A DNA stretch of 38,263 nucleotides, from the NCBI GenBank assembly GCA_045639225.1, contig JAZUCR010000431.1:1-38263 (forward strand). Direction: 5' to 3'. The notes below the pieces were generated by a model. That model saw nothing but the letters and a program-made list of their open reading frames with translations, was not told where the DNA came from and made no database searches. The translations under genes and the position numbers were made by a program. The DNA is from Victivallales bacterium (GTDB lineage Bacteria > Verrucomicrobiota > Lentisphaeria > Victivallales > UBA1829). This document shows positions 19,952 to 35,197 of the stretch, piece after piece (positions within the stretch are counted from its first letter, which is position 1; every line of letters begins with the position of its first letter).

Positions 19952-21481
19952 TCATGGTTTTACTGCGGATCTGAACCAGTCCAGAAAAGCTTCCCGCTGC
20001 CGAACGTATTTTTCCGTTGCGCGGCGGTATTCCTGCTGCAGTTTCGCATCCTTCCGGCTGCGGATCATCGTTGCCTCGTTCCGGAGCGTCAGCCATTCCC
20101 GCTGTTCCACTCCGAAAAACTGCAGGAAACGGTCCGTTTCCGCCATCTTCCGGAGAATTTTCGGTCCCGGATCCTTTCCGTTTTTTTCACGATGGAGCAG
20201 TTCTTCCAGAGCTTTCCATTTGCGGTTCCGTTCCCATTCGATCCCGGCCCGCTGCCAGAGTTCCATCCGTTCTGGATCACGGTAAAGGGTCAAAGTGTCG
20301 GCGCCGACTCCGCTTGTGCATAATCCCTCATAGAATTTACGGCATCCATTCCGTTTTTCCGGATCGGGGATCGAGTTCAGCCAGGTTTCCAATTTCTCCC
20401 GGAAAACGCGGTCCGCCTGATGCTGTTTCAGCCAGTCCAGAAATGCAAACCAGTCTCCGGTCCGGTCGGTTTCCGAAGCATATTCGCGCAGGTTTCCTGC
20501 CTCCGCCAGACGGTTGTATTCCGCCAGGCTCAGCGTGGAATAACTGCGGCGGACTTTCGGAAAATCCGGGATCTCTTCTTTTTTCGGTATTTGCTTTTCC
20601 GGTTTGATATCCGCTGGTTTGACTGCCGGAGCCGATTCGGCACGTTCGGCCGGGACAGTATGCGCAGGAGAACGGAGCAGGAGCAGGAACGGGATCGCCA
20701 GCAGCGCGGCCGCGGTCAGGATTGCCGGCAGCAGATATTTCCGGGTCCGGCGCGGTGCGGGCAGCTGACCGTTCAGAAAATCCATCAGTTCCGCCGTGTC
20801 ATGGATTTCCGGTTCATCTCCGCAGACGGCGATGGCGGCCCGCAAAATCACGGATGCCGCGTCGGAAAGTTCGCCGTCGTAATACGGAAATTTTCCCGGC
20901 TGCTGTCCGGACAGCGCACAGTAAAGTGTTTTGGCCAGTGCGTAACAGTCGGTATATTCATTCGGGGCGGTCTGTCCTTTCAGCAGGGCAGGCGCAAGGA
21001 AGCCGGGCGAACCGGCAAAGGTGGCGTTTTCTCCGCGCGTGACCAGTCCGATATCCCCCAGCACGATTTCCCCGTTCCGGAAGAAGATATTGTCCGGTTT
21101 GATGTCCCGGTGGATCAGCCCGTGTTTATGCAGTTCCGCCAGGGCTCCCGTCAGTTTTTTGGCCATCGGAAGCAGTTCGTCCGGCGGTATTTTCCGTCCG
21201 GCCAGCGGACTTTCGCACCAGTCCATCGTGTAGAACAGCTGTCTGTCCGTTTGCCCGACATGATGGATCCGGATCAGGTTTGGATGTTCGATTTTCTGAT
21301 ACAGCTTCACGGCCTGAAGTTCGCGTTCCGCCAGACTGCCCTGTTCCGGAAACATTTTCAAGGCGAAGCGTTCGCCCGAGATGAGATTTTCCGCCAGATA
21401 AACCGTCCCGCAGGAACCGGAACCGGTTTCTTCCAGCAGTTTATAGCCGTCCAGAATGGAATCAATGATTTCCTGTTTCAT
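19952..21481 (-). CDS. Hanks-type Ser/Thr protein kinase with one TM helix and a C-terminal extracytoplasmic domain
   Basis: GSGSCGTVYLA P-loop, ALK lysine, HRDIKPDNIF catalytic loop, and a DIG variant of DFG. The TM helix is YLLPAILTAAALLAIPFLLLL. Confidence 0.9.
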   Translation of the reverse strand: MKQEIIDSILDGYKLLEETGSGSCGTVYLAENLISGERFALKMFPEQGSLAERELQAVKLYQKIEHPNLIRIHHVGQTDRQLFYTMDWCESPLAGRKIPPDELLPMAKKLTGALAELHKHGLIHRDIKPDNIFFRNGEIVLGDIGLVTRGENATFAGSPGFLAPALLKGQTAPNEYTDCYALAKTLYCALSGQQPGKFPYYDGELSDAASVILRAAIAVCGDEPEIHDTAELMDFLNGQLPAPRRTRKYLLPAILTAAALLAIPFLLLLRSPAHTVPAERAESAPAVKPADIKPEKQIPKKEEIPDFPKVRRSYSTLSLAEYNRLAEAGNLREYASETDRTGDWFAFLDWLKQHQADRVFREKLETWLNSIPDPEKRNGCRKFYEGLCTSGVGADTLTLYRDPERMELWQRAGIEWERNRKWKALEELLHREKNGKDPGPKILRKMAETDRFLQFFGVEQREWLTLRNEATMIRSRKDAKLQQEYRRATEKYVRQREAFLDWFRSAVKP

Positions 21482-21567: not shown

Positions 21568-22182
21568 TCATCTTTCATCTTTCATCTCTAATTTCAGATT
21601 CGGATCGTCCCGGTTGATTTCGGCAATGATTTCCCGCAGATGCGTGATGCAACGGCTTTTCGCCACATATACCTGATTGATGTCCAGCTTGAGGAAATCC
21701 GCGGTTTCTTTCGCACTTTTTCCTTGGAACGCGGTCAGATGGAATGCCAGAAACGTTTCCGGTTTCACCTGATTGCGGAGACGGTCGAGCGCTTCCTGCA
21801 GCATTTGTTTGCGCCATTCGTCCAGAAACATGTCATCGGCTTCGGCCGGCACGGGCGCTTCCGGGATCTTGTCGGAGAGGATTTCACCCGAGCGCTGCTG
21901 TTTCTCCCTCAGGCAATCATAGATGCAGGAACAGAGGATCTGATTGAAATACGTGCGGAACCGGGCGCGTTTCGAATCATATTTCATGACCAGGTCATGC
22001 TGGAAGAATTTGAGCATGATATTCTGGAGCAGGTCCTTGCATTCATCGGTTGTCAGTCCGTAACTTCCGCCGGCCTGAAAGACGACGGGCGAATACCGGT
22101 CGTAGAATTCCTGCCACGATACTTCATCGCCGGTCTGGATTTTTTCCAGCATGGTTTTATGGGTCGATGGAAAAGCGCTCAT
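21568..22182 (-). CDS. ECF-type RNA polymerase sigma factor (sigma-70 family)
   Basis: Start taken at the ATG at 22182, after AGGAAGGA. It has a region-2-like segment (WQEFYDRYSPVVFQ) and a region-4 HTH (AKETADFLKLDINQVYVAKSRCITHLRE). It lies directly upstream of the kinase. Confidence 0.85.
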   Translation of the reverse strand: MSAFPSTHKTMLEKIQTGDEVSWQEFYDRYSPVVFQAGGSYGLTTDECKDLLQNIMLKFFQHDLVMKYDSKRARFRTYFNQILCSCIYDCLREKQQRSGEILSDKIPEAPVPAEADDMFLDEWRKQMLQEALDRLRNQVKPETFLAFHLTAFQGKSAKETADFLKLDINQVYVAKSRCITHLREIIAEINRDDPNLKLEMKDER

Positions 22183-22317
22183 ATTGGTCCTTCCTGTTTT
22201 CATGCCAATATACACTCCATCGGGTCAAAAGCAAGATTCCGCATTCGATTTCTTATTTTTTCTTGATCGGGGTCTTCGCAAGCCGCATCTGCGGCATCAT
22301 GATATCTTGCCGCATGC

Positions 22318-25043: not shown

Positions 25044-25110
25044 TTTCCTGATTCCCGCCTGTTATATTTTCACGGAACCGAGGTTCCCGTTATTGTTTTC
25101 GTGCAAAACG

Positions 25111-25133
25111 GGAGCCGGGTTTCCCCGGACTCC
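25111..25133 (-). terminator. Intrinsic-terminator-like hairpin downstream of the DIP1984-family gene
   Basis: The minus-strand RNA reads GGAGUCCGGGGAAACCCGGCUCC (9 bp with one bulge), followed by CGUUUUG. Confidence 0.4.
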
Positions 25134-25136
25134 CGA

Positions 25137-25311
25137 CCTGACAGAGTGTGAAGTGACAAAGCTAAATTTTGATTTTTGAGTTTTTGGGTGAAAGATGCCG
25201 CGTTGACGCCGTACTTAATTTTACAATCTGAGGAGTACTAGCTTGTGTCAGGCGACATCCTTCAGTTAAGCGGGCCGCCGAAGCGGCCAAATCACTTCAC
25301 TCCCTGTCAGG
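25137..25311. repeat. 175-bp element bounded by 20-nt terminal inverted repeats (MITE/REPIN-like or structured RNA)
   Basis: CCTGACAGAGTGTGAAGTGA (25137-25156) matches the reverse complement of TCACTTCACTCCCTGTCAGG (25292-25311) at 18 of 20 positions. An internal perfect hairpin GGCCGC-CGAA-GCGGCC lies at 25273-25288. Confidence 0.6.
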
Positions 25312-25316
25312 ATTAT

Positions 25317-25766
25317 TCAAAACTCAAACTCAAAACGAGTTTGGGCGTTGAATTCATCTATCTCATCCTGCAGTGTATTGATCCTCTGCTGGAGAGCTTC
25401 CATTTCACTGGTGATTTCTCCCTTTTTGATTTCAGAAGTGTAAACCCTGTCATCCAGAGAGGATACTCCCCTGGGCTGTTTCCCTTCCTTGACGGGAATT
25501 TCCCTCACTCTGGAAAGGAGGTGTTTGACTTCAGCCAGTTCCACCAGCTTGTCACTGATGCCTGCATTGGCATGGCTGATGGCCTGTTTCAGTCTGATCA
25601 GTTTTTCTGAGAGATCATGGAACTCCTGATATTTTTCCCTGATGTCAATACTTCTGACTCCTCCTTCAATCTGGGAATTTTCTTCTTTGATGAGGCTCAG
25701 TGTCTCCATGATTTTCTGATTGAGACGAGATCTTTCCTTGAAAGCTTTAGCCAATGAAATCTTCAT
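25317..25766 (-). CDS. DIP1984-family (septicolysin-like) helical protein
   Basis: 149 aa. The MKISLAKAFKERSRLNQKI N-terminus, the central AISHANAG motif and the C-terminal IDEFNAQTRFEF match my recollection of DIP1984-family proteins. AGGAGG lies before the ATG. The gene is AT-rich relative to its flanks. Confidence 0.6.
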   Translation of the reverse strand: MKISLAKAFKERSRLNQKIMETLSLIKEENSQIEGGVRSIDIREKYQEFHDLSEKLIRLKQAISHANAGISDKLVELAEVKHLLSRVREIPVKEGKQPRGVSSLDDRVYTSEIKKGEITSEMEALQQRINTLQDEIDEFNAQTRFEFEF

Positions 25767-26011
25767 GTTTCATCCTCCTTTTGGGGTTGCTGATGTTGGA
25801 TCGTTCCGATCGTTTCATCCCTCATATACGGCATTTTTTCCCAATTCTGACAGTTTCCTGAAAAAAAGTTGAAAAAGTTTCAAGCTGCAAGACACAAACT
25901 GCAAGTCACAAGCTTTCTGCTTAAAGTCCGCAGAGCGGGCTCACGGATCATTGGCCACGCTTCCGGTTTTCCGCAATCTTTAAGTGAGCAATGCGGGCGG
26001 TCCTTCTCCTC

Positions 26012-28066
26012 TTATGCTTGTCTTTCTTTACCCCCTTGCACCCATGCCCGTGCTTCATCGCGGACCTGTTCGAACGGAATCAGTTCCATGCAGTTCCAGG
26101 TGTTGCAATTCCTGCATTTCCCGTAATCCGAACATTCCGGAAAGATGATTTTATGGCGGCTTTGATCATACGGATGCCAGGTAAGACGGGCATCCCCGGC
26201 GGACAATGTAACAGTCCGGCAGTCGAGCATTTTAAGCAAGTGCATGACCCCGGTGTCATTACCGACCGCGAAAATCCTTTCGGGCCCCCACATGGAAGCC
26301 AAACCGGCAATATCGGAAAGGGCGGCGCCGCAGGCGGTTTTCCATCCGGCGTTCCGGATCGCATCGACATCGTTTGCTTCATCCGGCCCCAGCAGGAAAA
26401 CCGGTTCACGTCCCGCCCGATGCAAGTCAGCCGCCAGTTTCAGATAATTCTGCAGATCCCATTTTTTCCCCTTGTAACTGCCGCCCGGCACCAGCAGAAC
26501 GCCGTTCCGCGGGAAATCATAGCGCTCCTTAACTCTTTCAAAATCGATGCAGAGCTGGTTTCCCGCCAGAACCGGATGCTGGCAATGGTAATCTTTTTCC
26601 GCCAGACGGAACAGGCTGGAACCCTGTTCCGTTACGCTGGTATGGTAGCGTAACTGCTCGTCATCCCACATCGTGAGCGACAGCCAGCCCCCGTTATAGA
26701 TTTCCCGGCACACTTTTTCCGGGATCTCGGTGTTTTCATATCCGTATGCCCGGACATATTTCATTTTCCGGATCAGAGCGGCGGATTCTCCGCCATACCG
26801 GTGATTGAACACCGCATCATATTCCCGGTCCGGGAGAACGGTTTTATCCCCCTGATATTCAACGCAGTGATCGGCAAACGCATAATCCCGGAAAAACGGC
26901 AGCATGCCTTTCGATTCAAAAACGGTGATTTCGCACGGTGCATAGAACCGGACCGCTTCTTCGATGTTGTTGATATTCACCAGCGAATCGCCGATCCGGT
27001 CCTGCATCAGAAAGGCGACCTGGCGGAAACGGGGCTGCGGCAGTTCCAGTTTTTCAAAGAGTTTGCACACCACCTGTTTCACGGAAATACTGCCGATGCA
27101 GAGTTTCTGACACGCGTCGCATTTCTTTTCGTCCGCGCAATCCGGCATGATCAGCGAATGGACCGGCTCCTCGTAGGGATACCAGTTAAAGGCCGATCCG
27201 CTGGCGATGATGTGGATCGTTTTGCGGTGAAATGCCGCGGCGAAGTGCATCGGGCCCGAATCGTTGCCGATAATCAGTTCCGCCCGGTTGACCACATCCG
27301 CCAGCTGCGCGAAGGGCAGGGTATCCAGCACGGGATAGCCGCTTCTTGTCAACTCCGGCATCAGACAGCGGTCCTGCGGGCCGATGGCGAACACCGCTTC
27401 CACTCCTGCGGCTTTCAGGGTTTTCGCTACAGCCAGATACTTGGCGACCGGCCAGTATTTCCCGATCCAGCTCGTACCCGGCAGGAACAGCACGAATTTT
27501 TTCGGCAGGACGCCCGGATACGCTTCCAGCCGGTAGGTTTCCGGAGTCAGCGTCGGATATACATAATTGAAATCCGGATCGGCCAGCCGGATCGGTTCCG
27601 CCATCTGTTCGCAGACCGTCCGGTATTTTTTCAGCGTCACGTTGTCCCAGTATTCCTCGCAGACCCATTTGTCAAAATGGCTCCGGCACATCTCTTCGGT
27701 GATCAGACTGCATTCGGAACCGTAACGCTTTTTGCATTTCAGTTTGTCCTGCAGTTCCAGATAGACCGGATGATACGCCAGATTGAATACCGCGTCGAAT
27801 TCCGTCTCCGGTGCAACGAATTCGGAAAGGTCCAGATCGCCGTGAATCCCGCCTTTCAACGTGACGACCTCATCCGCCCATGCCGAATTTTTCATCAGTT
27901 CGGCGATGAGCGGAATGGCGAAGACCGTTATCCGGCACGGCGCGTAGAGCTTTTTGAGATGTTCCAGCTGGTTCATGCAGCAGATCACATCCCCCAGCGG
28001 CGTCAGCGCTATATAAGCGATTTCCCTGACCGGCAGAGTCTTGTCAGTTTCCTGTTCCCGTCCCAT
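26012..28066 (-). CDS. Tandem (duplicated) glycosyltransferase family 9 protein, heptosyltransferase-like
   Basis: 684 aa in two homologous halves, each with the GT9 signature (GNDSGPMHFAAA and GNDTGVMHLLKM). Each half ends in a Cys4 motif (CADEKKCDACQKLC and CSDYGKCRNCNTWNC). Confidence 0.85.
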   Translation of the reverse strand: MGREQETDKTLPVREIAYIALTPLGDVICCMNQLEHLKKLYAPCRITVFAIPLIAELMKNSAWADEVVTLKGGIHGDLDLSEFVAPETEFDAVFNLAYHPVYLELQDKLKCKKRYGSECSLITEEMCRSHFDKWVCEEYWDNVTLKKYRTVCEQMAEPIRLADPDFNYVYPTLTPETYRLEAYPGVLPKKFVLFLPGTSWIGKYWPVAKYLAVAKTLKAAGVEAVFAIGPQDRCLMPELTRSGYPVLDTLPFAQLADVVNRAELIIGNDSGPMHFAAAFHRKTIHIIASGSAFNWYPYEEPVHSLIMPDCADEKKCDACQKLCIGSISVKQVVCKLFEKLELPQPRFRQVAFLMQDRIGDSLVNINNIEEAVRFYAPCEITVFESKGMLPFFRDYAFADHCVEYQGDKTVLPDREYDAVFNHRYGGESAALIRKMKYVRAYGYENTEIPEKVCREIYNGGWLSLTMWDDEQLRYHTSVTEQGSSLFRLAEKDYHCQHPVLAGNQLCIDFERVKERYDFPRNGVLLVPGGSYKGKKWDLQNYLKLAADLHRAGREPVFLLGPDEANDVDAIRNAGWKTACGAALSDIAGLASMWGPERIFAVGNDTGVMHLLKMLDCRTVTLSAGDARLTWHPYDQSRHKIIFPECSDYGKCRNCNTWNCMELIPFEQVRDEARAWVQGGKERQA

Positions 28067-28093
28067 GTTCCGCGTCCTGCGCTGAAGCGGTTT

Positions 28094-28846
28094 TCATTTA
28101 AGTCTTAAAAATTTCCTGAAATTGCCGGACATGATCCCGTCCGACGCGATTTTCAGAAACTCTTTCAGCACTTTCCGGTAATAGGCGGTCAGCTGCACGT
28201 CGTAATAACACTGCATCACCGGCAGGTCGGTTCCGAACATCACCCGGTCCGCCACGCCGTTCGCTTCCAGCAGCTCGATCCGTTCCGGCGGCATGAACGC
28301 CGTGTCCGTGTAAAGGTTCGGACATTCTTTCATGGCGTCGATCGTCGCCTGGCCCGGACGGCAATGGGCAAAATCCACCCGCAGTTTCGGATGTTTCTTC
28401 ACATACGGCAGATAATCGCCCGGATAGCACCCCGGATCCTCGCCGGTGTGGAACTGCACCGGAACATCCCGTTCTTCCAGCACCGAAAGGATATAATCCA
28501 GGTCTTTCGGCCGCGTGCTCCATTTTGTTTCCAGTTCGTGCAGTTTCACTCCGTCGTAGATGCCCCGGTCCAGAAATTTCAGCCCGCGGTCCGTTTCGAA
28601 CATCGGACCCGAAAGCCAGCAGAACGCATGGGCTCCCCGTCCGAACTCTTTTTTCGTTTCTGCCGCTTCGTTATGGAGACTTTCGATGTCCGTCACCCCG
28701 AAATGCGACGAACTGGAAGAAAAGATGAACTCTTCCACTCCGCAGCGTTTCAGGATGGACGATACTCTTTTCGGCGTATAGTAAAAGGGCCGGTCATAAC
28801 CCTTCCTTTGAAAATAGCCGACATGGACATGCGCGTCGCAGATCAT
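28094..28846 (-). CDS. Amidohydro_2-type metal-dependent TIM-barrel hydrolase/decarboxylase family protein
   Basis: 250 aa. N-terminal ICDAHVHVG (HxH metal ligands), internal HTGE and FAHC, and FGTDLP near the C-terminus. Confidence 0.8.
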   Translation of the reverse strand: MICDAHVHVGYFQRKGYDRPFYYTPKRVSSILKRCGVEEFIFSSSSSHFGVTDIESLHNEAAETKKEFGRGAHAFCWLSGPMFETDRGLKFLDRGIYDGVKLHELETKWSTRPKDLDYILSVLEERDVPVQFHTGEDPGCYPGDYLPYVKKHPKLRVDFAHCRPGQATIDAMKECPNLYTDTAFMPPERIELLEANGVADRVMFGTDLPVMQCYYDVQLTAYYRKVLKEFLKIASDGIMSGNFRKFLRLK

Positions 28847-30282
28847 TTTTTCATCCTCGCTTCCTGTTGCTGATCCACCAGTTTATGGTTGATTTCCGCC
28901 ACCTTGCAGAAATGTTCCGCCGGTGTGAATATATCTCCCGTTTCGTTGATGTTCCGGCACATGCAGACCGAACAGTAATTCCGGTCCTTGCATTTCACGC
29001 ATTTGGGGAAATCCCGTCCCCGGACATTCCTCAGTTTCAGCGTCTCCGGCGATTTCAGCCACACCTCCGACAGTGATTGTCTGTAGCAGTTTCCCAGAAT
29101 ATAGCTGCCGAACGCCGGACACGGATAATAGTTCCCTTCCGCGTCGATGCACATGCTGTCGATCACCGCCCCGCAGACTTTGTTCGCCATCCACTCCTCG
29201 TCGGAAAGCATCTCGTCTTTTTTCGACGGGTCGAAATATTCGCTGTTCATCGGGACCGACTTGAAGATGATGTCCTTCAGCAGCTCTTCCGATTCCGCCA
29301 GGTCCAGACGGCAGGAAAGGTTGCTGCAGTCCCCGTCCATCTTCCCCATGATGATGAAATCCGTCTGCGCCGACATCTTCAGGCTCCGGGCGTAATTGAT
29401 GACGTCCATGTATCCGCGGAAGTTCGATTTCATCGTCGGACACGAGATCCGGCACGGGATCTGCGCTTCCCGGATCTTTTCGATCGCGCTTTTCGTCTTC
29501 TCCCACGAACCCTTCCGACGGGTGATGGCATCGTGGATCTCCGGGTCCATGCTGTAAAGCGACACCTGCACCGTCGATTCCGTTTCCTGCAGCAGCCTGA
29601 TCTTCCGGTCGTCGCACAGCGTCAAGTTGGACAGCACCCCCACGATCAGGTCTTTTTCCCGCGCATAACGCACGATTTTATCAAAATCAGGATGCATCAT
29701 GCACTCCCCGCCCGACAGCGTCAGATCCAGCCCTCCCATCGCCCGGAACTCGTCCAGGATCTCCTTGATTTTTTCGAACGGCAGAAACACCGGATTGTAT
29801 TCCGGTATGTAGCAATGCACGCACCGTTCCGTGCACGCCTGCGTGATGTCCATTTGAAGCCGGAAGATCGTCGGATGCTCCTGAAAATATTTCCCCAGCA
29901 CGTTCTGCGGCAGAAATTCCGCTTCCTCCCGGCTGATCGCGACCGTATCTTTCAGCGTTTTCGGATCGTCCACATCGTAACTGAACGATTCCTCCTGCGC
30001 CGCCAGTTCCCCGGGCGTCTCCCCCGACAGGATCACTTTCCGCTCCAGCAGCGGTTTCAGGAACTCGTCGAAGTCCGCCGCGATCTCCGCCCGGTCCGCG
30101 CCCGTGTAGACCGCACAGATGTTTTCCAGGATCTCCGCTTTCTCCCGCGGTTCCCGCGTGATCCACCGCATGAACACTTCCGCTCCCGAAAACATCTCGT
30201 CATAAAGCGAGATCCGGCTCATGATGTAGGTGAACTCCCCGTATTGGCGGACAAAACTGTTTTTCGACAACTGAAGCAGCAT
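28843..30282 (-). CDS. Radical SAM/SPASM-domain peptide maturase with N-terminal PqqD-like RRE
   Basis: 479 aa. The first ~100 aa are PqqD-like (ILENICAVYTGADRAEIAADFDEFLKPLLERKVI). The CX3CX2C cluster is ACTERCVHCY. The C-terminal SPASM cysteines are CIDAEGNYYPC and CVKCKDRNYCSVCMC. The stop codon overlaps the amidohydrolase start. Confidence 0.9.
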   Translation of the reverse strand: MLLQLSKNSFVRQYGEFTYIMSRISLYDEMFSGAEVFMRWITREPREKAEILENICAVYTGADRAEIAADFDEFLKPLLERKVILSGETPGELAAQEESFSYDVDDPKTLKDTVAISREEAEFLPQNVLGKYFQEHPTIFRLQMDITQACTERCVHCYIPEYNPVFLPFEKIKEILDEFRAMGGLDLTLSGGECMMHPDFDKIVRYAREKDLIVGVLSNLTLCDDRKIRLLQETESTVQVSLYSMDPEIHDAITRRKGSWEKTKSAIEKIREAQIPCRISCPTMKSNFRGYMDVINYARSLKMSAQTDFIIMGKMDGDCSNLSCRLDLAESEELLKDIIFKSVPMNSEYFDPSKKDEMLSDEEWMANKVCGAVIDSMCIDAEGNYYPCPAFGSYILGNCYRQSLSEVWLKSPETLKLRNVRGRDFPKCVKCKDRNYCSVCMCRNINETGDIFTPAEHFCKVAEINHKLVDQQQEARMKK

Positions 30283-30286
30283 TGTT

Positions 30287-31630
30287 TCACTCCCCGTAAA
30301 TTCGTTTGATCACCGCCGCTCGGGCGCACTGGACCGGACTGTGCTGCCGGATGTCGCCAGCGGCATTGAAATTGTGCGCCGGACATACCTTGCAGAAACG
30401 CCGGTTGGAGCATTCCGCACAGCCCGGAAAATCCCGGTTCCGCAATGCCCGCAGCGCATTCATTTTTTCTCCGTTCCAGACCTCGGACAAGGTCTGGTCA
30501 CGCACCGTCCCCAAAATCAGACCGTGCGTCCCGTCGCACGGATAATAGTTTCCCCGGCTGTCCAGACAGATCCGCGCTTTCCCGATGTCGCAGACCTTTT
30601 CATCCGGTCCCGGATTTTCCGCCGCATATTCCTTGCGGAAAAGCTCCCTGTTTTCCCGCAGCAGTATTTCCAGTTCCGCAGCCGACAGCGCATGTTCCAT
30701 ATTAGAACTGTCATGGTCGCATTGCGGGAAAATGTTGAGGTCCGGCACCAGGTGCATGCGGTGCGCTTTCGCGAATTCCGCCAGCGCCGGAAAACTCTCC
30801 CGGTTCTCCTTCAGCGCCGGCGCCGCCAGACGGATATGGATCCCCGCTTCTTCGCATTTCAGGATCGCCCCCATCGTCCGTTTCCAGCTCCCCGGCAGCG
30901 TCGTCACCGCATCGTGGATCTCCGGTTCCATACTGTAAAGCGAGACATTCACGAACTGCGGGTCGATCTCCTTCAGCAGTTCGATCTTCCGCCCGCCGCA
31001 CAGCGTCAGATTCGATAAGATAATGATGTTGATATTTTCATTTTTACAGAATTTCAGGATATCGTCGAACCGCGGGTGCATCATGCACTCCCCGCCCGAC
31101 AGATGCACCGTCAGTCCTCCCAGTTCCTTGTATTCCTTCAAGGCCTTGCAGACCAATCCGTAATCCAGAAAACGGTTGGTATAATCCGGGATGTAGCAAT
31201 GCACGCACCGTTCCGTGCATGCGCTCGTCAGGTCGATATGAAATTCCGCCGGAATGTGATGTTTTTCGAAGAAACTTCCCAGCGGCGTCCACCCTTCAGG
31301 CTGTTCCGTTCCCCCGGCCGAATGACTTTTCTCTGGGACATTCGTTTTGGCTGGTTTTGTCTGCTCTTTCCCTTCGCATTTCACCAGTCCGTTCGCCGTC
31401 AGCGGCGCCATGAACTCTTCGAAATCATCCCGGATCTCGTCCGGTTTCATTCCGAACTGCGCCGCCAGCTGCACAAGGATCTCCTCTTCCGGTTTCGGTT
31501 CCCACCCGATATGCCGCAGGAACGGTTCCGCATCCTCCAGGATCATGCACGCGCTGTTCCGCTTGTGCCACAGCAGCGTTTCATTCCCCAGATGACGAAC
31601 GAAAGTTTGTGATGAATAATGCAGTTTCAT
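30287..31630 (-). CDS. Radical SAM/SPASM-domain peptide maturase with N-terminal PqqD-like RRE (paralog)
   Basis: 447 aa. The PqqD-like N-terminus is ILVQLAAQFGMKPDEIRDDFEEFMAPLTANGLV. The ACTERCVHCY cluster is identical to the paralog. The SPASM cysteines are CLDSRGNYYPC and CAECSNRRFCKVC. Confidence 0.9.
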   Translation of the reverse strand: MKLHYSSQTFVRHLGNETLLWHKRNSACMILEDAEPFLRHIGWEPKPEEEILVQLAAQFGMKPDEIRDDFEEFMAPLTANGLVKCEGKEQTKPAKTNVPEKSHSAGGTEQPEGWTPLGSFFEKHHIPAEFHIDLTSACTERCVHCYIPDYTNRFLDYGLVCKALKEYKELGGLTVHLSGGECMMHPRFDDILKFCKNENINIIILSNLTLCGGRKIELLKEIDPQFVNVSLYSMEPEIHDAVTTLPGSWKRTMGAILKCEEAGIHIRLAAPALKENRESFPALAEFAKAHRMHLVPDLNIFPQCDHDSSNMEHALSAAELEILLRENRELFRKEYAAENPGPDEKVCDIGKARICLDSRGNYYPCDGTHGLILGTVRDQTLSEVWNGEKMNALRALRNRDFPGCAECSNRRFCKVCPAHNFNAAGDIRQHSPVQCARAAVIKRIYGE

Positions 31631-32298
31631 GCCAGTCCGTGCTGTTCAATGTATCCGCCCAGCATGAACAGCTTCTTTTCCCACTCGCTGCCTCTTCCTG
31701 TATTCCTCAGTCCTGCACAGAAATTGAGATAATCAACTGCTTCTGCATTGTCTGCTGTTTGTCGTGTCAATTTGCGGATTGTTTCATTGATTTTTTTCTT
31801 CTTGGCCTTATTGTTTCCCGTATTCGGAGTCGGAATTTTAAATTTATATTGGTCCAAATATAATTTCTGCAAAGCGATTGCCACTCTGGAGTCGTAAATG
31901 TAATATTGGTCCGGATCCCATGCCGCAAGAATCTTGCTCTTCGATGCAATGCCGTTACTTATATCATTCAGTAAAGTGTTGCCAATCAAATCCATTGCAT
32001 ATCTATCAATGGTCGAATCGGCATTCCCTTTGATTCCTCCCCAGTTGACAACAATCAGCCTGATGATTTTTTTGACGCGTGATTGATCTTGGGTTTCGAC
32101 AGCATTTTTCAGCGCATCATGAAATTTTTGAAATAATTTTTCTGTAATCTGCGCTTTGTCTAACTGATCCATCGGATCCATCAGGAAGCAAAGGATTTTT
32201 TGTCCTTCCGGCGGCCACTTCCAGTTGTAAGTAAGATCCACGTTGGGGTAATTGTGTTGAATCCGCTGTTCGATATCGCTGAAATCCGGAAATGGCAT
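31627..32298 (-). CDS. Hypothetical protein, family not recognised; AT-rich orphan coupled to the rSAM genes
   Basis: 223-aa ORF with AGAGGA before the ATG. Its stop codon overlaps the rSAM start codon (ATGA at 31627-31630). Its composition is clearly more AT-rich than the flanking genes. Confidence 0.65.
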   Translation of the reverse strand: MPFPDFSDIEQRIQHNYPNVDLTYNWKWPPEGQKILCFLMDPMDQLDKAQITEKLFQKFHDALKNAVETQDQSRVKKIIRLIVVNWGGIKGNADSTIDRYAMDLIGNTLLNDISNGIASKSKILAAWDPDQYYIYDSRVAIALQKLYLDQYKFKIPTPNTGNNKAKKKKINETIRKLTRQTADNAEAVDYLNFCAGLRNTGRGSEWEKKLFMLGGYIEQHGLA

Positions 32299-32331
32299 TT
32301 TTCTTTTTTCCTCTATTTCGTGTTGTTGAAT

Positions 32332-32363
32332 GCCGGTCTGCGGCGAATCTGCTGCAGACCGGC
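32332..32363 (-). promoter_or_regulatory. Strong intercistronic stem-loop between the candidate precursor ORF and the downstream enzyme genes
   Basis: GCCGGTCTGC (32332-32341) pairs perfectly with GCAGACCGGC (32354-32363) and can be extended by about 3 bp. No U-tract follows. Confidence 0.5.
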
Positions 32364-32387
32364 TGTGAACTTACAGCAGTTCTACTG

Positions 32388-32525
32388 TCAGTTCAGCGGG
32401 CCGCACATGCAGGCGGTGTTGTGGGGGAAACAGCTTCTAGACTCAGGTGTTTTCTCCGGGCAACCGGCGACGTAGGACTTTTTGGCGGACGCTTTCGCGA
32501 CGATCTGGGGTTTCTTGTAAGCCAT
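32388..32525 (-). CDS. Candidate RiPP precursor peptide, 45 aa, four Cys (not in the ORF track)
   Basis: My own translation gives MAYKKPQIVAKASAKKSYVAGCPEKTPESRSCFPHNTACMCGPLN. AAGGAG lies 6 nt upstream of the ATG at 32525, and the TGA stop is at 32388-32390. The N-terminal half is Lys/Ala-rich and the C-terminal half Cys/Pro-rich. It sits directly upstream of the RRE-containing rSAM genes. Confidence 0.55.
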   Translation of the reverse strand: MAYKKPQIVAKASAKKSYVAGCPEKTPESRSCFPHNTACMCGPLN

Positions 32526-32612
32526 TTGAGGCTCCTTTCCGAGGGGATCTCCCTCAATTTGTGTTTATTCTGAAACGCGCCCGGCAGACATGCCGGAATC
32601 AGCGCGGTCCAT

Positions 32613-32735
32613 TCAGCTCATGGATTTGTAAATTAGGATCGCAATGACGATAATGATCAGGATGATGACCGCCCACTTGGGGTGTTTCATAGCCCATGCC
32701 GCAACGTCTTTTCCCAATTCGTAAGAAGAACCCAT
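32613..32735 (-). CDS. Possible 40-aa single-pass membrane peptide
   Basis: My own translation gives MGSSYELGKDVAAWAMKHPKWAVIILIIIVIAILIYKSMS. GGAAAGGAACAGGGAA lies upstream of the ATG at 32735. A hairpin CCGGCA-GACA-TGCCGG at 32581-32596 lies downstream of the ORF. Confidence 0.3.
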   Translation of the reverse strand: MGSSYELGKDVAAWAMKHPKWAVIILIIIVIAILIYKSMS

Positions 32736-32775
32736 TTCCCTGTTCCTTTCCTGTTTTCCGTTTGTTTATCTTCCG

Positions 32776-32874
32776 GTCGGGGCACGAAAAAAGGCGTACC
32801 CCGACTACATTGTCACAGAGGTACGCCAATACACCCAATCACCCATGCAGACAGAGTACGCCATTGCTGGCGTA
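32776..32874 (-). promoter_or_regulatory. Repeat-rich structured leader with mutually exclusive hairpins
   Basis: One hairpin spans 32776-32805 (GTCGGGG...CCCCGAC). Its 3-prime arm GGCGTACC (32793-32800) can alternatively pair with GGTACGCC (32820-32827). A third hairpin, TACGCC-ATTGCT-GGCGTA, lies at 32857-32874. CAGAG(G)TACGCCA occurs as a direct repeat at 32816 and 32852. Confidence 0.4.
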
Positions 32875-33019
32875 TCTGACAAGCAGCGGGTGATTTCCGT
32901 CTATGAAATTGGCGTTTTCTGTGACAGAACCGTTCTTGCAGATACTAACTATTTGCAAAAAAACTATGTTAAATCATAACTCTCGAATAACAGAATCCTT
33001 TCTTCTGATTTCCGTCGTT

Positions 33020-33048
33020 ACAATAACACATCTTTTCGCAAATGTCAA
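33020..33048 (-). promoter_or_regulatory. Putative strong sigma70-type promoter driving the minus-strand operon
   Basis: On the minus strand: TTGACA (33048-33043), 17-nt spacer, TGT-TATTGT extended -10 (33025-33020). Confidence 0.4.
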
Positions 33049-33152
33049 CCCTGTCGTGCAAAATAATCGGAATATATTGACGCACCTGGAATTCTTCCAT
33101 TGTCGTAATATACGGGAGTTTTTCAGCAATCTTACACCGGACTTCAAAAAAA

Positions 33153-33173
33153 ATATGAAATATGAAATATGAA
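33153..33173. repeat. Heptanucleotide tandem repeat ATATGAA x3
   Basis: Read directly from the sequence. It follows an A8 run in the large divergent intergenic region. Confidence 0.85.
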
Positions 33174-33475
33174 AGAGAAAAGGGCGGCGGAGCCGGGAGA
33201 CGAAGTGAAGATTCGAGATCTCGCGTCATGGCAGGTCTTTCACGATTGTCCGGGAGAGTCCGGGTTTGTCTGTGCAGGTCCGTGTCAGTTCGCGTTTCCC
33301 GCGGCTTTCGCGTCATGGCCTGGCTTGTGTGTCGTTCCGAAGGGCCGGGTCAACGTTTTTACGGAAAAAAAGCCGTTAAATCATGCAGAAAGCGAAAAAA
33401 CGACTTGAAAAATCGGTAAAACAGTTTATGTTTCATAATGAAATAATGTAAATACAGCGAAAACGAGGTTGATCG

Positions 33476-35197
33476 ATGGCGCAAAATTACGATTTTATAT
33501 TGGAATTGCTCCTGGAAAACGGGATGGTGACCGAAGAGCAGGTATCGGAAGGCTGGGAAAAAGTCGCGGCCAGCGAAGGTTCGCAGAATATCATCCAGGC
33601 CCTGCAGGAACTGAAATATGTGGATCCGAACGAAATGCTGCAGATGCTGGCACAGCAGTACGGCATGGAGACCCTGGATCTGAATACCTATAAAATCCCG
33701 GCGGAAGTGATCGAGTCGGTTCCGAAAGAAGTAGTCGATCAATACCATGTCATCCCGGTCATGAAACACGACGATGTGCTGACCATTGCGATCGGGGATC
33801 CGACCGATCTGACCACGCTGGATTCCGTCCGTTATGTGCTGAAATGCGATGTGGATGCCGTGGTGTCGCCGCCGGAGCAGATCCAGTCCGCGATCAAGCT
33901 GTATTACAGCGATACGGGGAAGGGGATCAACCAGGCGATGGAAGAGATCCAGGATATGGATGAAGGAGAGATCCCCGCCTCGGCGGATGAAGGCGGTGCG
34001 GTCAATGCGGACGAATCCGGCGAAGGCGATGCCCCGATCATCCGGCTGGTGACCGCGATCATCGTGGAAGCCTACAAGATGCACGCCAGCGATATTCATA
34101 TGGAGCCGCTGGAAAAACGCTACCGGATCCGTTACCGGGTGGACGGTGTGCTGCGGGAAGTGGATGCGCCGCCGAAATATCTGCAGCCGAACATCACCAG
34201 CCGCGTGAAGATTATGTCGCGTCTGGACATTTCCGAAAAACGTCTGCCTCAGGACGGACGTATCCAGATGCGTGTCAGCGGATGCGATATCGACTTGCGC
34301 GTATCGACGATCCCGACCACGCACGGGGAAAGCATCGTCATGCGTATTCTGGAAAAAGCCAGTATCCAGCTGGAGATCCCGCAGCTGGGATTCTATGCGG
34401 ACGACCAGAAGAAAATCAATCAGATCATCAATATGCCGGACGGCGTGTTCCTGGTGACGGGCCCGACCGGTTCGGGAAAAACGACCAGTCTGTATGCGTT
34501 TCTGAATACGATCAATCTGCCGAACCGGAAGATCATCACGGTGGAAGACCCGGTGGAATATCAGCTGCCGGGCATCAATCAGGTGCAGGTGAACAATCTG
34601 GCGGATATGACCTTCGCCAACGCGCTGCGCGCCATGCTGCGTCAGGCGCCGAACATCATCATGGTAGGAGAGATCCGAGACGCGGAAACTGCGACGATCG
34701 CCATCAACGCGGCGCAGACGGGACACCTGGTGTTCAGCACGCTGCATACCAACGACGCGCCCAGTGCGGTGACGCGTATGATCGATATGGGAGTGCAGCC
34801 GTTCCTGGTTTCCTCGTCCGTGCGGGCCATTATGGCGCAGCGTCTCCTGCGCCGCGTCTGCAAAAACTGTGCCGAACCCACGACTCCCACCAAGGAAGAA
34901 CGCCGTCTGCTGAAACTGGATGACAAATTCATGGACACTGCAACGCTGAAGAAAGGCCGCGGCTGTCCGGTCTGCGGCGGCACGGGTTACAAGGGCCGCG
35001 TCGGTATTTATGAAATTTTCCAGGTGGGGGAAGATATCCAGCACCTGATCTATAAGAAAATGTCCGCCGACGTGATCCGTGCGGCGGCCCGGAAGGGCGG
35101 CATGATCACCCTGCGTGAAGACGGTTTGCGGAAAGCGGCCGCGGGTATTACCTCCCTGCAGGAAGTGATCACAACAACCATGGGAGATGCGGAATGA
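33476..35197 (+). CDS. GspE/PilB-family type II secretion / type IV pilus assembly ATPase (paralog 1)
   Basis: 573 aa. N-terminal T2SSE_N/MshEN-like domain, Walker A GPTGSGKTT, Asp/His boxes, and a tetracysteine motif (CKNC...CPVCGGTGYKGR). GAGG lies 7 nt before the ATG. Confidence 0.9.
   Translation: MAQNYDFILELLLENGMVTEEQVSEGWEKVAASEGSQNIIQALQELKYVDPNEMLQMLAQQYGMETLDLNTYKIPAEVIESVPKEVVDQYHVIPVMKHDDVLTIAIGDPTDLTTLDSVRYVLKCDVDAVVSPPEQIQSAIKLYYSDTGKGINQAMEEIQDMDEGEIPASADEGGAVNADESGEGDAPIIRLVTAIIVEAYKMHASDIHMEPLEKRYRIRYRVDGVLREVDAPPKYLQPNITSRVKIMSRLDISEKRLPQDGRIQMRVSGCDIDLRVSTIPTTHGESIVMRILEKASIQLEIPQLGFYADDQKKINQIINMPDGVFLVTGPTGSGKTTSLYAFLNTINLPNRKIITVEDPVEYQLPGINQVQVNNLADMTFANALRAMLRQAPNIIMVGEIRDAETATIAINAAQTGHLVFSTLHTNDAPSAVTRMIDMGVQPFLVSSSVRAIMAQRLLRRVCKNCAEPTTPTKEERRLLKLDDKFMDTATLKKGRGCPVCGGTGYKGRVGIYEIFQVGEDIQHLIYKKMSADVIRAAARKGGMITLREDGLRKAAAGITSLQEVITTTMGDAE

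What the first reader, a model, noticed from the sequence alone, without database searches (positions are those of the whole stretch)
26012..32735. Candidate novel RiPP-type operon: Cys-rich peptide, two RRE-rSAM/SPASM enzymes, Amidohydro_2 and a tandem GT9 glycosyltransferase
Seven minus-strand ORFs are tightly packed. ATGA overlaps occur at 28843-28846 and 31627-31630, and other gaps are 4 to 89 nt. They follow a strong predicted promoter at 33020-33048. A small Cys-rich ORF next to rSAM/SPASM enzymes carrying PqqD-like recognition elements is the established signature of sactipeptide/ranthipeptide-type RiPPs. The co-translated double heptosyltransferase-family enzyme and Amidohydro_2 protein are not a tailoring set I know from any described RiPP class; to my knowledge, glycocins use GT2 SunS-type enzymes. 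No protease, exporter or immunity gene is evident. The divergently transcribed GspE/GspF genes are the only nearby export-related functions.
Basis: partly seen in the sequence, partly recalled or inferred. Interest (0 to 1): 0.9.

Follow-up and report, generated by a model that had tools for sequence, protein, structure and literature searches.

The report
Gut-bacterial modified-peptide operon with sugar transferase
This is a real, conserved gene cluster of uncultured gut and rumen Lentisphaeria/Kiritimatiellia that most likely makes a small cross-linked, sometimes glycosylated, ribosomal peptide using an enzyme combination I found described nowhere.

Summary
The seven minus-strand ORFs, the ATGA overlaps, the domain calls and the promoter-like site are all as described.

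Comparative genomics supports the RiPP reading. In about 35 related loci from gut and rumen Lentisphaeria/Kiritimatiellia MAGs the conserved core is:
- one to three copies of a 43-53 aa peptide;
- two radical-SAM/SPASM enzymes, each with a PqqD-like N-terminal domain;
- an Amidohydro_2 protein.

The peptide has the classic precursor layout. Its 21-residue leader (MAYKKPQIVAKSxAKQSFVAG) averages 75% pairwise identity. The Cys-rich core averages 33%, with an invariant Cys22 and a frequent C-x3-N-x2-C motif. A strong RNA hairpin follows the gene in 10 of 10 loci tested.

The tandem GT9 glycosyltransferase is an accessory. It is present in about a third of the loci. Every GT9 relative whose context I checked sits in this cluster, and each GT9 half carries an invariant four-Cys motif.

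The 40-aa and 223-aa ORFs are not conserved. Related loci often add an ABC exporter and an ECF sigma/Ser-Thr kinase pair, and that pair is also present in the window.

No curated family or paper describes this system. The chemistry is inferred, not shown. My verdict is a new variant of radical-SAM RiPPs.

The parts
33020..33048 (-). sigma-70-like promoter candidate (TTGACA-17-TATTGT, TG extension), about 495 nt upstream of the precursor gene
   Evidence: Best consensus match in 25000-33500. This is a consensus match only and function is not shown.
32613..32735 (-). 40-aa ORF with one hydrophobic helix. Its status is uncertain and it is not a conserved member of the cluster.
   Evidence: No tblastn homolog in any related locus. 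Unrelated small hydrophobic ORFs occupy the same position in L001, L003 and L017 only.
32575..32607 (-). GC-rich hairpin in the 5' region of the precursor gene. Related loci have hairpins with different stems at the equivalent place.
   Evidence: Sequence and alignment of upstream regions. No Rfam family matches.
32541..32555 (-). short conserved hairpin (GAGGGAGATCCCCTC) immediately 5' of the conserved ribosome-binding site GGAAAGGAGCC
   Evidence: The stem is kept with base changes in L007, L008 and L010.
32388..32525 (-). precursor peptide, 45 aa: leader MAYKKPQIVAKASAKKSYVAG, core CPEKTPESRSCFPHNTACMCGPLN (Cys22, 32, 39, 41; Asn36)
   Evidence: 41 distinct homologs in related loci. Leader 75% and core 33% mean pairwise identity. 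M1, K5, P6, A10, K15 and C22 are invariant. There are 38 further peptide clusters in the 1.84-billion-protein library. NxxC is present in 29 of 41 cores against 7.9 expected.
32332..32363 (-). strong stem-loop after the precursor stop codon, with no U-tract. It is probably an attenuator or mRNA-stabilising hairpin.
   Evidence: Fold of the 86-nt stretch containing the hairpin: -30.8 kcal/mol, z = -4.9. Non-homologous hairpins sit at the same place in 10 of 10 loci folded.
31627..32298 (-). 223-aa protein of unknown function in the variable slot between the precursor and the first rSAM gene. It lies in a lower-GC stretch.
   Evidence: No Pfam, NCBIfam or PADLOC match. The only homolog is in L001. 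Other loci hold unrelated genes here. GC is 0.47-0.48.
30287..31630 (-). rSAM_A: a radical-SAM/SPASM enzyme with an N-terminal PqqD-like (RRE) domain. It is the more variable maturase (36-68% identity across loci).
   Evidence: CxxxCxxC (C138/142/145) and seven SPASM cysteines are invariant in 28 of 28 sequences. Its clustering follows the core-peptide type.
28843..30282 (-). rSAM_B: a radical-SAM/SPASM enzyme with an N-terminal PqqD-like (RRE) domain. It is the highly conserved maturase (56-97% identity).
   Evidence: C150/154/157 and nine or more C-terminal cysteines are invariant. The best solved relatives by profile are SkfB, SuiB, PqqE and CteB.
28094..28846 (-). Amidohydro_2 TIM-barrel metal-dependent enzyme. 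It is a core member of the cluster and the candidate for a hydrolytic step.
   Evidence: Pfam 57.4 bits against a cut-off of 26.4. Present in all loci with enough sequence. The family is small, 144 proteins. H6, H8, K101, H103, H133, H161 and D207 are invariant. AF2 pLDDT is 95. The nearest folds are ACMSD, LigI-like and dihydroorotase at 12-19% identity.
26012..28066 (-). tandem GT9 (GT-B) glycosyltransferase. Each half has an invariant Cys4 motif (C310/316/319/323 and C645/651/654/659). It is an accessory tailoring enzyme.
   Evidence: GD, K and GNDxGxMH motifs are kept in both halves. AF2 pLDDT is 90. The best folds are 3TOV, WaaF and WaaC. Four of four independent relatives sit in the same cluster context.
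21568..22215 (-). ECF-type sigma factor, a possible regulator of the cluster
   Evidence: TIGR02937 above its cut-off. Orthologs at 32-45% identity flank the cluster in L005, L008, L024 and L035.
19952..21481 (-). membrane-spanning Ser/Thr protein kinase (kinase domain, transmembrane segment near 248-272, about 235-aa outer domain), paired with the ECF sigma factor
   Evidence: Kinase genes lie next to the cluster in about 12 loci.

Best explanation
The locus is a biosynthetic operon for a ribosomally made, post-translationally modified peptide (RiPP) of a so far undescribed family. The family is restricted to anaerobic gut and rumen Lentisphaeria and Kiritimatiellia.

Shown by sequence comparison:
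- The 45-aa gene product is a precursor with a conserved 21-residue leader and a hypervariable Cys-rich core.
- Two radical-SAM/SPASM enzymes, each with a leader-binding (RRE/PqqD-like) domain, and an Amidohydro_2 enzyme always accompany it.
- In a subset of loci a dedicated GT9 glycosyltransferase and an ABC exporter follow.

Inferred mechanism:
1. The RRE domains dock the leader.
2. The two rSAM enzymes use their auxiliary Fe-S clusters to join the conserved cysteines (Cys22, 32, 39, plus or minus 41) to carbon atoms of other residues as thioether cross-links. The conserved Asn36 in the C-x3-N-x2-C motif is the most likely acceptor, by analogy with the Asn beta-thioether made by NxxcB.
3. 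The conserved rSAM_B acts on the invariant part of the substrate. The variable rSAM_A, which co-varies with the core type, acts on the variable part.
4. The Amidohydro_2 enzyme performs a hydrolytic step, most plausibly removal of the leader at the invariant Gly21-Cys22 junction. No other protease is conserved.
5. The two GT9 domains each add a sugar to the core, probably heptose from ADP-heptose. Thr26 and Ser37/38 are weak candidate sites.
6. Export is by the ABC transporter where one is present.
7. The neighbouring receptor kinase and ECF sigma pair may control expression.

The biological role, whether antimicrobial or signalling, is unknown.
For: Precursor:
- 41 distinct homologs. The leader averages 75% pairwise identity and the core 33%. 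Cys22 is invariant. There are one to three copies per locus, with a conserved ribosome-binding site.
- 38 further peptide clusters are found in a library-wide search.
- A hairpin follows the gene in 10 of 10 loci folded.

Maturases:
- rSAM and SPASM domains score above cut-offs.
- The CxxxCxxC motif and seven or more SPASM cysteines are invariant.
- RRE support comes from hits to TbiB1 and PqqD and from 18 of 24 N-terminal domains hitting PqqD.
- The best solved relatives are the RiPP maturases SkfB, SuiB, PqqE and CteB.

Synteny: peptide, rSAM_A, rSAM_B and Amidohydro_2 occur in all of about 35 loci with enough sequence.

GT9 linkage:
- The family has only 59 members.
- Four of four blind context look-ups show rSAM-rSAM-AH2-GT9.
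- 80 generic GT9 loci have none of these neighbours.
- The gap to the GT9 gene is 27 nt and there are ATGA overlaps upstream.

Other points:
- The NxxC motif is in 29 of 41 cores against 7.9 expected and a maximum of 17 in 2000 shuffles. The NxxcB precedent is in PMC9389541.
- rSAM_A clusters by core type, for example L023 and L032. rSAM_B does not.
- An ABC exporter of the bacteriocin/MsbA type follows in 7 or more loci.
- Amidohydro_2 metal ligands are invariant.
Against: - No product has been observed. Every chemical step is inferred.
- Neither rSAM reaches the cut-off of any curated maturase family. The best score is 94 bits against cut-offs of 265-850, so the reaction type cannot be read from homology.
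- The PqqD match is weak on the full-length proteins.
- 12 of 41 cores lack NxxC.
- The Amidohydro_2 protein has no characterised close relative. Its nearest folds are decarboxylases and lactonases at 12-19% identity, and no member of this Pfam family is known to me as a peptidase.
- GT9 is absent from about two thirds of loci. Its nearest relatives act on lipopolysaccharide, not peptides.
- The Thr26/Ser38 enrichment in GT9-positive loci is confounded by phylogeny.
- The window itself has no exporter.
Confidence: 0.72

Rival explanations
1. The peptide and the two rSAM enzymes form a RiPP pathway, but the enzymes make something other than thioethers. Candidates are C-C or C-O cross-links, epimerisation, or thio-oxazole-type heterocycles as made by SbtM.
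For: No curated maturase family is reached, and hits are spread over chemically different families: GeoRSP, NirJ2, ScmE/F, SbtM, AlbA, PapB, MftC and PqqE at similar scores. SuiB, a Lys-Trp C-C cross-linker, is the second-best solved relative.
Against: The only invariant or near-invariant core residues are cysteines plus Asn36. That pattern is typical of thioether-forming systems. SkfB, a thioether former, is the best solved relative. Aromatic residues are not conserved in the core.
Confidence: 0.2
2. GT9x2 (and possibly Amidohydro_2) are cell-envelope genes, such as lipopolysaccharide core heptosylation enzymes. They merely share an operon with the peptide genes and do not act on the peptide.
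For: All sequence and fold neighbours with known function are LPS heptosyltransferases. GT9 is missing from most related clusters, so the peptide pathway works without it.
Against: The tandem-GT9 family is tiny, and every member checked lies directly after rSAM-rSAM-AH2. It fails all LPS heptosyltransferase equivalog cut-offs, for example 79.6 against 185 bits. It has a family-specific invariant Cys4 motif in each half. Generic GT9 loci never have these neighbours.
Confidence: 0.12
3. The peptide is the precursor of a peptide-derived redox cofactor, as in PQQ or mycofactocin. Mycofactocin likewise combines an rSAM/SPASM enzyme, an RRE, a hydrolase and a glycosyltransferase.
For: The gene set resembles that of mycofactocin (my own knowledge of the mft operon). 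rSAM_B is unusually conserved, at 56-97% across two classes.
Against: The core is hypervariable at 33% identity. There are several divergent copies per locus and length variants of 43-53 aa, which is incompatible with one fixed cofactor. MftC and PqqE models score far below their cut-offs. No partner dehydrogenases are conserved nearby.
Confidence: 0.04
4. The Amidohydro_2 protein is not a hydrolase of the peptide backbone. It could instead be a decarboxylase, deamidase or cyclase, or an amidohydrolase-related dinuclear oxygenase, acting on a side chain or terminus.
For: The nearest folds are the decarboxylases ACMSD and IDCase and the lactonase LigI-like proteins. PF04909 also contains oxygenases (PMC13154177).
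Against: The oxygenase signature D-x-P-H-x-D/E is absent; the window protein has D207-L-P-V-M-Q. The hosts are gut anaerobes that use oxygen-sensitive rSAM enzymes. The peptide C-terminus is not conserved, which argues against a C-terminal decarboxylase. The ligand set H-x-H, K, H, H, D fits hydrolytic amidohydrolases.
Confidence: 0.3

Closest known systems
Ranthipeptides and sactipeptides (SCIFF/CteB, freyrasin/PapB, subtilosin/AlbA, SkfA/SkfB)
   Same: A short precursor of about 45 aa with a Cys-rich core sits next to rSAM/SPASM enzymes that carry an N-terminal RRE. The CxxxCxxC motif and the seven-Cys SPASM motif are present. SkfB and CteB are among the best solved relatives.
   Different: None of the curated models for these maturases or their peptides is reached. 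There are two paralogous maturases per cluster. An obligatory Amidohydro_2 partner is present, and a GT9 partner in some loci. The hosts are PVC-group Gram-negatives rather than Firmicutes.
NxxC RaS-RiPP of streptococci (NxxcA/NxxcB), Asn beta-carbon to Cys thioether
   Same: A conserved N-x-x-C motif in the core, in 29 of 41 peptides and enriched over chance. An rSAM/SPASM enzyme is adjacent. The reaction precedent is in PMC9389541.
   Different: The leader and the gene set are unrelated. Homology of rSAM_A or rSAM_B to NxxcB was not tested because no sequence was at hand. Here the motif is embedded in C-x3-N-x2-C-x-C-G-P-L, with further conserved cysteines.
Mycofactocin pathway (MftA-F)
   Same: It combines an rSAM/SPASM enzyme, an RRE, a non-classical hydrolase that trims the peptide, and a glycosyltransferase (my own knowledge of the pathway).
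   Different: Mycofactocin has one invariant core (C-terminal Val-Tyr), a GT2 enzyme and a creatininase-family peptidase. Here the core is hypervariable, the transferase is GT9 and the hydrolase is Amidohydro_2. The MftC model scores 75 against a cut-off of 265 bits.
Glycocins (sublancin/SunS and relatives)
   Same: Ribosomal Cys-containing peptides that are glycosylated by a dedicated transferase encoded in the cluster.
   Different: Glycocins use GT2 (GT-A fold) S-/O-glycosyltransferases and disulfides, with no rSAM enzymes (my own knowledge). Here the transferase is a tandem GT9 of GT-B fold.
Bacterial autotransporter heptosyltransferases (TibC, Aah)
   Same: GT9-type enzymes that glycosylate a polypeptide rather than LPS and bind iron through cysteines. 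PDB titles 4RAP and 4RB4 describe an iron-containing heptosyltransferase. The GT9 here has an invariant Cys4 motif in each half.
   Different: A sequence profile of the window family does not find TibC. The fold match to TibC (TM 0.41-0.48) is weaker than to WaaC, WaaF and 3TOV (0.70-0.75). The tandem fusion and the small-peptide context are also different.
Bottromycin amidohydrolase (BotAH/PurAH)
   Same: A TIM-barrel amidohydrolase-superfamily enzyme that cuts a RiPP precursor in place of a classical protease (my own knowledge). This is the precedent for the role proposed for the Amidohydro_2 protein.
   Different: It belongs to a different Pfam family of the superfamily. No sequence relationship was detected, since there were no PDB sequence hits at E < 0.1. 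The proposed role here is untested.

Membership tests
rSAM/SPASM-dependent RiPP (sacti-/ranthipeptide type) | Short precursor gene next to the maturase, with a conserved leader and a variable Cys-rich core | tested here: met
   41 peptides. Leader 75% and core 33% identity. Invariant Cys22. Adjacent in all loci with upstream sequence.
rSAM/SPASM-dependent RiPP (sacti-/ranthipeptide type) | Radical-SAM CxxxCxxC cluster motif | tested here: met
   C138/142/145 in rSAM_A (28 of 28) and C150/154/157 in rSAM_B (26 of 26). Pfam Radical_SAM is above its cut-off.
rSAM/SPASM-dependent RiPP (sacti-/ranthipeptide type) | SPASM domain with seven cysteines for two auxiliary Fe-S clusters | tested here: met
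   rSAM_A C347, 365, 404, 407, 413, 416 and 435 are invariant. rSAM_B has nine invariant C-terminal cysteines. Pfam SPASM and TIGR04085 are above their cut-offs.
rSAM/SPASM-dependent RiPP (sacti-/ranthipeptide type) | RiPP recognition element (PqqD-like domain) | tested here: met
   The full-length proteins are below the Pfam cut-off. The isolated domain of rSAM_B reaches it at 23.4 bits. 18 of 24 domains hit PqqD. The profile hits the RRE protein TbiB1 at E = 9e-5, plus PqqD-family chaperones and PqqD.
rSAM/SPASM-dependent RiPP (sacti-/ranthipeptide type) | Cys sulfur to alpha (sacti) or beta/gamma (ranthi) carbon thioether in the product | not testable with these tools
   This needs MS/NMR of the product. 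Only the conserved Cys/Asn pattern is available.
Named maturase families (PapB, SCIFF maturase, AlbA, SkfB, StsB, MftC, PqqE, SbtM, GeoRSP, ScmE/F) | Score at or above NCBIfam's curated cut-off | tested here: not met
   The best score is 93.9 bits (GeoRSP, cut-off 400). PapB is 72 against 340, AlbA 74 against 850, and MftC 75 against 265.
NxxC RaS-RiPP | N-x-x-C motif in the core peptide | tested here: met
   29 of 41 cores, including the window's N36-T-A-C39. Shuffled cores give a mean of 7.9 and a maximum of 17.
NxxC RaS-RiPP | Maturase orthologous to NxxcB | not tested
   No NxxcB sequence or model was available in the tools used.
Glycosyltransferase family 9 | PF01075 match and GT-B fold with the GD, K and GxDxGxxH nucleotide-sugar motifs | tested here: met
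   117 bits against a cut-off of 22, in two stretches. Motifs are invariant in both halves. The fold matches 3TOV, WaaF and WaaC at TM 0.70-0.75.
LPS heptosyltransferases I/II/III (WaaC/WaaF/WaaQ) | Score at or above the equivalog cut-off | tested here: not met
   79.6 against 185, 58 against 135, and 63.7 against 170 bits.
Autotransporter heptosyltransferases (TibC/Aah) | Sequence and fold relationship closer than to the LPS enzymes | tested here: not met
   TibC is absent from the profile hits. TM is 0.41-0.48 against 0.70-0.75 for WaaC and WaaF. Only the presence of a Cys4 motif is analogous.
Glycocins | SunS-type GT2 glycosyltransferase in the cluster | tested here: not met
   No GT2 domain is present in the operon. 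The only transferase is GT9.
Peptide-derived cofactors (PQQ, mycofactocin) | An invariant core residue pair that becomes the cofactor, with one precursor type | tested here: not met
   The core is hypervariable, and there are several divergent copies per locus.
Amidohydro_2 (PF04909) metal-dependent TIM-barrel enzymes | Pfam match, TIM barrel, and conserved His/Asp metal ligands | tested here: met
   57.4 bits against 26.4. pLDDT is 95. H6, H8, H133, H161 and D207 are invariant. Fold neighbours are all amidohydrolase-superfamily members.
Amidohydrolase-related dinuclear oxygenases (ARO) | C-terminal D-x-P-H-x-D/E motif (PMC13154177) | tested here: not met
   The window protein reads D207-L-P-V-M-Q. 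Only D207 and P209 are conserved in the family.

The most novel reading that the evidence does not exclude
This would be the first RiPP class with three features:
- A radical-SAM cross-linked (thioether) peptide is glycosylated by a dedicated, metal-binding tandem GT9 heptosyltransferase.
- The leader is removed by an Amidohydro_2 enzyme instead of a protease.
- The cluster is built from a constant module (rSAM_B, Amidohydro_2, plus or minus GT9) and an exchangeable module (precursor copies, a variable gene slot, rSAM_A). This diversifies the product between strains.

It may also be autoregulated through the neighbouring receptor Ser/Thr kinase and ECF sigma pair. That would make it a secreted signal or weapon of abundant but uncultured gut and rumen Lentisphaeria/Kiritimatiellia.
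Probability: 0.3. Interest if true: 0.78.

Novelty: new variant of a known kind. Interest (0 to 1): 0.6.

Why it matters
Radical-SAM RiPPs are a main source of new peptide chemistry. Known examples come mostly from Firmicutes and Actinobacteria.

This family has several unusual points:
- It is confined to poorly studied, uncultured gut and rumen PVC bacteria.
- It is widespread there, with hundreds of enzyme variants and dozens of distinct peptides.
- It pairs the usual maturases with two partners I found in no described RiPP class: an Amidohydro_2 enzyme in every cluster, and a cysteine-motif tandem GT9 glycosyltransferase in a subset.

If the inferred steps hold, the family would give:
- a peptide-acting member of a transferase family known mainly from lipopolysaccharide assembly;
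- a new type of leader-processing enzyme;
- a natural library of variable cores for studying substrate tolerance.

It would also point to a peptide-based interaction system in animal gut communities.

Tried and rejected
- **Exact look-ups.** Look-ups of the window's peptide and rSAM_B found nothing on record.
- **JGI metagenome scan.** The scan with the GT9 profile returned only generic GT9 genes at 20-33% identity, with no rSAM, AH2 or peptide neighbours. It was useful only as a negative control.
- **TibC-like protein heptosyltransferase.** I considered this but it is not supported by the sequence profile, and the fold match is weaker than to the LPS enzymes.
- **Cofactor precursor.** Rejected because the core is hypervariable.
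- **Selenocysteine read-through of the TGA stop with the downstream hairpin as SECIS.** Rejected because most homologs end in TAA and the hairpins are not homologous.
- **Oxygenase (ARO) reading of Amidohydro_2.** Rejected on the missing motif.
- **The 40-aa membrane ORF and the 223-aa ORF as conserved parts.** Rejected, as there are no homologs or only one.
- **Rfam.** No known RNA family is in the region.
- **PDB sequence search for Amidohydro_2.** No hit.
- **Literature.** Searches for Lentisphaerae/Kiritimatiellae plus radical SAM, heptosyltransferase plus RiPP, ranthipeptide plus glycosyltransferase, the MAYKKP motif, Victivallis plus ranthipeptide, and PF01075 plus RiPP found no description of the system.
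- **Acceptor site for GT9.** Thr26 occurs in 14 of 15 GT9-positive cores against 3 of 10 GT9-negative ones, and Ser38 in 8 of 15 against 0 of 10. This is confounded by phylogeny and is not conclusive.

Full report
**Observation**

The seven minus-strand ORFs are present at the stated coordinates. The ATGA overlaps at 28843-28846 and 31627-31630 are real, and the other gaps are 4, 27, 87 and 89 nt.

The 45-aa ORF (32388-32525) reads MAYKKPQIVAKASAKKSYVAGCPEKTPESRSCFPHNTACMCGPLN. It has an AAGGAG ribosome-binding site.

Pfam and NCBIfam confirm the following:
- two Radical_SAM + SPASM proteins of 447 and 479 aa;
- an Amidohydro_2 protein of 250 aa;
- a 684-aa protein with two Glyco_transf_9 stretches.

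The 223-aa and 40-aa ORFs and the peptide match no family. No NCBIfam equivalog cut-off is reached by any protein.

The promoter-like site at 33048-33020 is the best consensus match in the region, but such matches are frequent.

The surrounding genes are ordinary chromosomal genes: TsaD, RlmN, Tgt, sugar ABC permeases, two GspE and a GspF.

**Relatives**

rSAM_B has hundreds of relatives at 56-97% identity. The named ones come from Lentisphaeria and Kiritimatiellae MAGs.

I collected loci from three sources: look-ups of contigs encoding rSAM_B homologs, a scan of species-representative genomes that gave 32 loci, mostly gut and rumen MAGs, and look-ups of contigs encoding GT9 homologs.

A tblastn of the seven window proteins against the loci shows a constant core:
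- one to three copies of the peptide;
- rSAM_A at 36-68% identity;
- rSAM_B;
- Amidohydro_2.

The core is found in every locus with enough sequence. In L023 and L034 the Amidohydro_2 gene lies upstream instead.

GT9 is present in 11 of the 32 representative loci, as a tandem or a single domain. These are mostly Lentisphaeria. The 40-aa ORF has no homolog, and the 223-aa ORF has one, in L001.

**The peptide is a RiPP-type precursor**

- The 41 recovered peptides are all different.
- Residues 1-21 average 75% pairwise identity, with M1, K5, P6, A10 and K15 invariant. The rest averages 33%.
- Cys22 is invariant, and most cores have 3-4 cysteines.
- N-x-x-C occurs in 29 of 41 cores. Shuffled cores give a mean of 7.9 and a maximum of 17. 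C-x3-N-x2-C occurs in 26 of 41.
- The ribosome-binding region is conserved.
- A strong but non-homologous stem-loop follows the stop codon in 10 of 10 loci folded. To my knowledge this is a common arrangement for precursor genes that must out-express the enzymes.
- A phmmer search of 1.84 billion representative proteins found 38 further small-peptide clusters and one spurious repeat protein.

**The maturases**

- Both have invariant CxxxCxxC motifs and at least seven invariant SPASM cysteines.
- A profile of 24 N-terminal domains hits the lasso-peptide RRE protein TbiB1 (E = 9e-5), PqqD-family chaperones and PqqD.
- 18 of 24 domains hit Pfam PqqD, and the isolated rSAM_B domain reaches the cut-off. 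The second refutation test is therefore passed, although the signal is modest.
- The best solved relatives by profile are SkfB, SuiB, PqqE, MoaA and CteB.
- Average-linkage clustering shows that rSAM_A groups follow the core-peptide type. For example, L023 and L032 share a CCxxAGSGxGSxCEIRRLK core and cluster together in rSAM_A but not in rSAM_B. L005 and L015 join the window's group only in rSAM_A.
- A Y1 transposase gene sits exactly between the two rSAM genes in L001, L002, L005 and L006.

Together these points suggest a variable module (precursor, a variable slot, rSAM_A) and a constant module (rSAM_B, Amidohydro_2, plus or minus GT9). This is an inference.

**Amidohydro_2**

The family is small, with 144 proteins found. 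H6, H8, K101, H103, H133, H161 and D207 are invariant.

The AlphaFold model is confident, with pLDDT 95. Its nearest solved folds are ACMSD, LigI-like hydrolases, CAC3332 and dihydroorotase, at TM about 0.7 and only 12-19% identity. There are no PDB sequence hits.

The oxygenase (ARO) motif D-x-P-H-x-D/E described in PMC13154177 is absent.

Its reaction therefore cannot be assigned. I propose leader removal at the invariant G21-C22 junction, for two reasons. No protease is conserved in the cluster, and an amidohydrolase-superfamily enzyme does such a job in bottromycin biosynthesis (my own knowledge). I put this at about 30-40%.

**GT9**

- Each half keeps the GD, K and GNDxGxMH motifs and an invariant C-x5-C-x2-C-x3/4-C motif. 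A further pair of conserved cysteines is also present.
- The model (pLDDT 90) is a double GT-B fold. It is closest to 3TOV, WaaF and WaaC at TM 0.70-0.75. TibC is more distant at 0.41-0.48, and TibC is absent from the sequence-profile hits.
- The family has only 59 members.
- Four members chosen without regard to context all sit directly after rSAM-rSAM-Amidohydro_2. Ten others share contig lengths with rSAM_B hits.
- 80 generic GT9 loci have none of these neighbours.

The transferase is therefore dedicated to this pathway, and the peptide is the most economical acceptor. This is inferred, not shown. The sugar and the site are unknown. The Thr26 and Ser38 enrichment in GT9-positive loci is confounded by phylogeny.

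**Accessories**

- A roughly 600-aa ABC exporter of the MsbA/bacteriocin type, without a peptidase domain, follows GT9 or Amidohydro_2 in at least seven loci. There is none in the window.
- An ECF sigma factor and a membrane-spanning Ser/Thr kinase flank the cluster in about a dozen loci. In the window they lie at 21568-22215 and 19952-21481. The sigma factors are 32-45% identical to the window's in four loci.

**Comparison with known systems**

The system works like a sacti-/ranthipeptide pathway, and its NxxC motif recalls the NxxcB reaction (PMC9389541). It fails every curated family cut-off.

It differs from glycocins, which use GT2 transferases and no rSAM enzymes. It differs from mycofactocin, which has an invariant core, a GT2 transferase and a creatininase-type peptidase.

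Nine literature searches found no description of the system. One further search retrieved the NxxcB precedent used above.

I classify it as a new variant of a known kind.

**Confidence**

| Claim | Confidence |
|---|---|
| It is a RiPP operon | about 0.85 |
| The cross-links are thioethers | about 0.5-0.6 |
| GT9 acts on the peptide | about 0.6 |
| Amidohydro_2 is the leader peptidase | about 0.3-0.4 |

Noticed in passing
window 19952-22215 (-); L005 4152-6117; L008 536-2462; L120 12845-14768: An ECF sigma factor and a membrane-spanning Ser/Thr kinase lie about 4 kb downstream of the GT9 gene. Orthologous pairs (sigma 32-45% identical) flank the peptide cluster in many related loci. They are possible dedicated regulators.
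   Followed up: partly
L001 9525-9983; L002 1256-1714; L005 9523-9981; L006 481-939; window ~135-575 (-): A 152-aa Y1 (IS200/RAYT-type) transposase gene is inserted exactly between rSAM_A and rSAM_B in four loci. A homolog lies near the start of the window.
   Followed up: no
rSAM_A and rSAM_B across L001-L037: rSAM_A clusters by core-peptide type, whereas rSAM_B follows a different, apparently phylogenetic, grouping. This suggests exchange of a precursor + rSAM_A module against a constant rSAM_B + Amidohydro_2 backbone.
   Followed up: partly
window 32541-32555 and 32575-32607 (-); equivalent sites in L005, L007, L008, L010, L015, L024, L026, L035: There are hairpins in the 5' untranslated region of the precursor gene. 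A short one directly precedes the conserved ribosome-binding site, with base changes that keep pairing. A second hairpin further upstream has different stems in different loci, flanked by conserved GTCCGTAAT and CGGAAATA. No Rfam family matches.
   Followed up: partly
window 31627-32298 (-) and the same position in L119, L121, L122, L024, L026, L028, L032: The slot between the precursor and rSAM_A holds unrelated genes in different loci: the 223-aa protein here, an 8xMP-family protein, and unknown proteins of 441, 558 and 583 aa. In the window it coincides with a drop in GC to 0.47-0.48.
   Followed up: partly
window 22980-25043 (-) and 25317-25766 (-): A 687-aa AAA+ ATPase has sub-threshold matches to the anti-phage ATPase IetA/IteA. 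A 149-aa coiled-coil-like protein with a weak LmuB/SMC match lies between the GT9 gene and the sigma/kinase pair. Neither is conserved in related loci.
   Followed up: no
window 33476-38263 (+); L007 7947-9047; L027 8160-9485; L037 ~14262: Type II secretion / type IV pilus genes (two GspE and a GspF here; GspE- or GspF-like genes elsewhere) lie next to the cluster in at least four loci. This may be chance in these pilus-rich genomes.
   Followed up: no
L007 + L010 (MAG SIG91); L012 + L033 (MAG RGIG2398): Some genomes carry two separate copies of the cluster, each with different precursor cores.
   Followed up: no
P0143 (998 aa, JGI): One relative of the tandem GT9 is fused to an FGE-sulfatase-like domain. 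An FGE-sulfatase-like gene also lies next to the kinase in L001.
   Followed up: no
L009 (contig JAZRZG010000183.1): One locus with the full core cluster is labelled as a Synergistaceae MAG. All the others are PVC-group bacteria. This could be mis-binning or a horizontal transfer.
   Followed up: no
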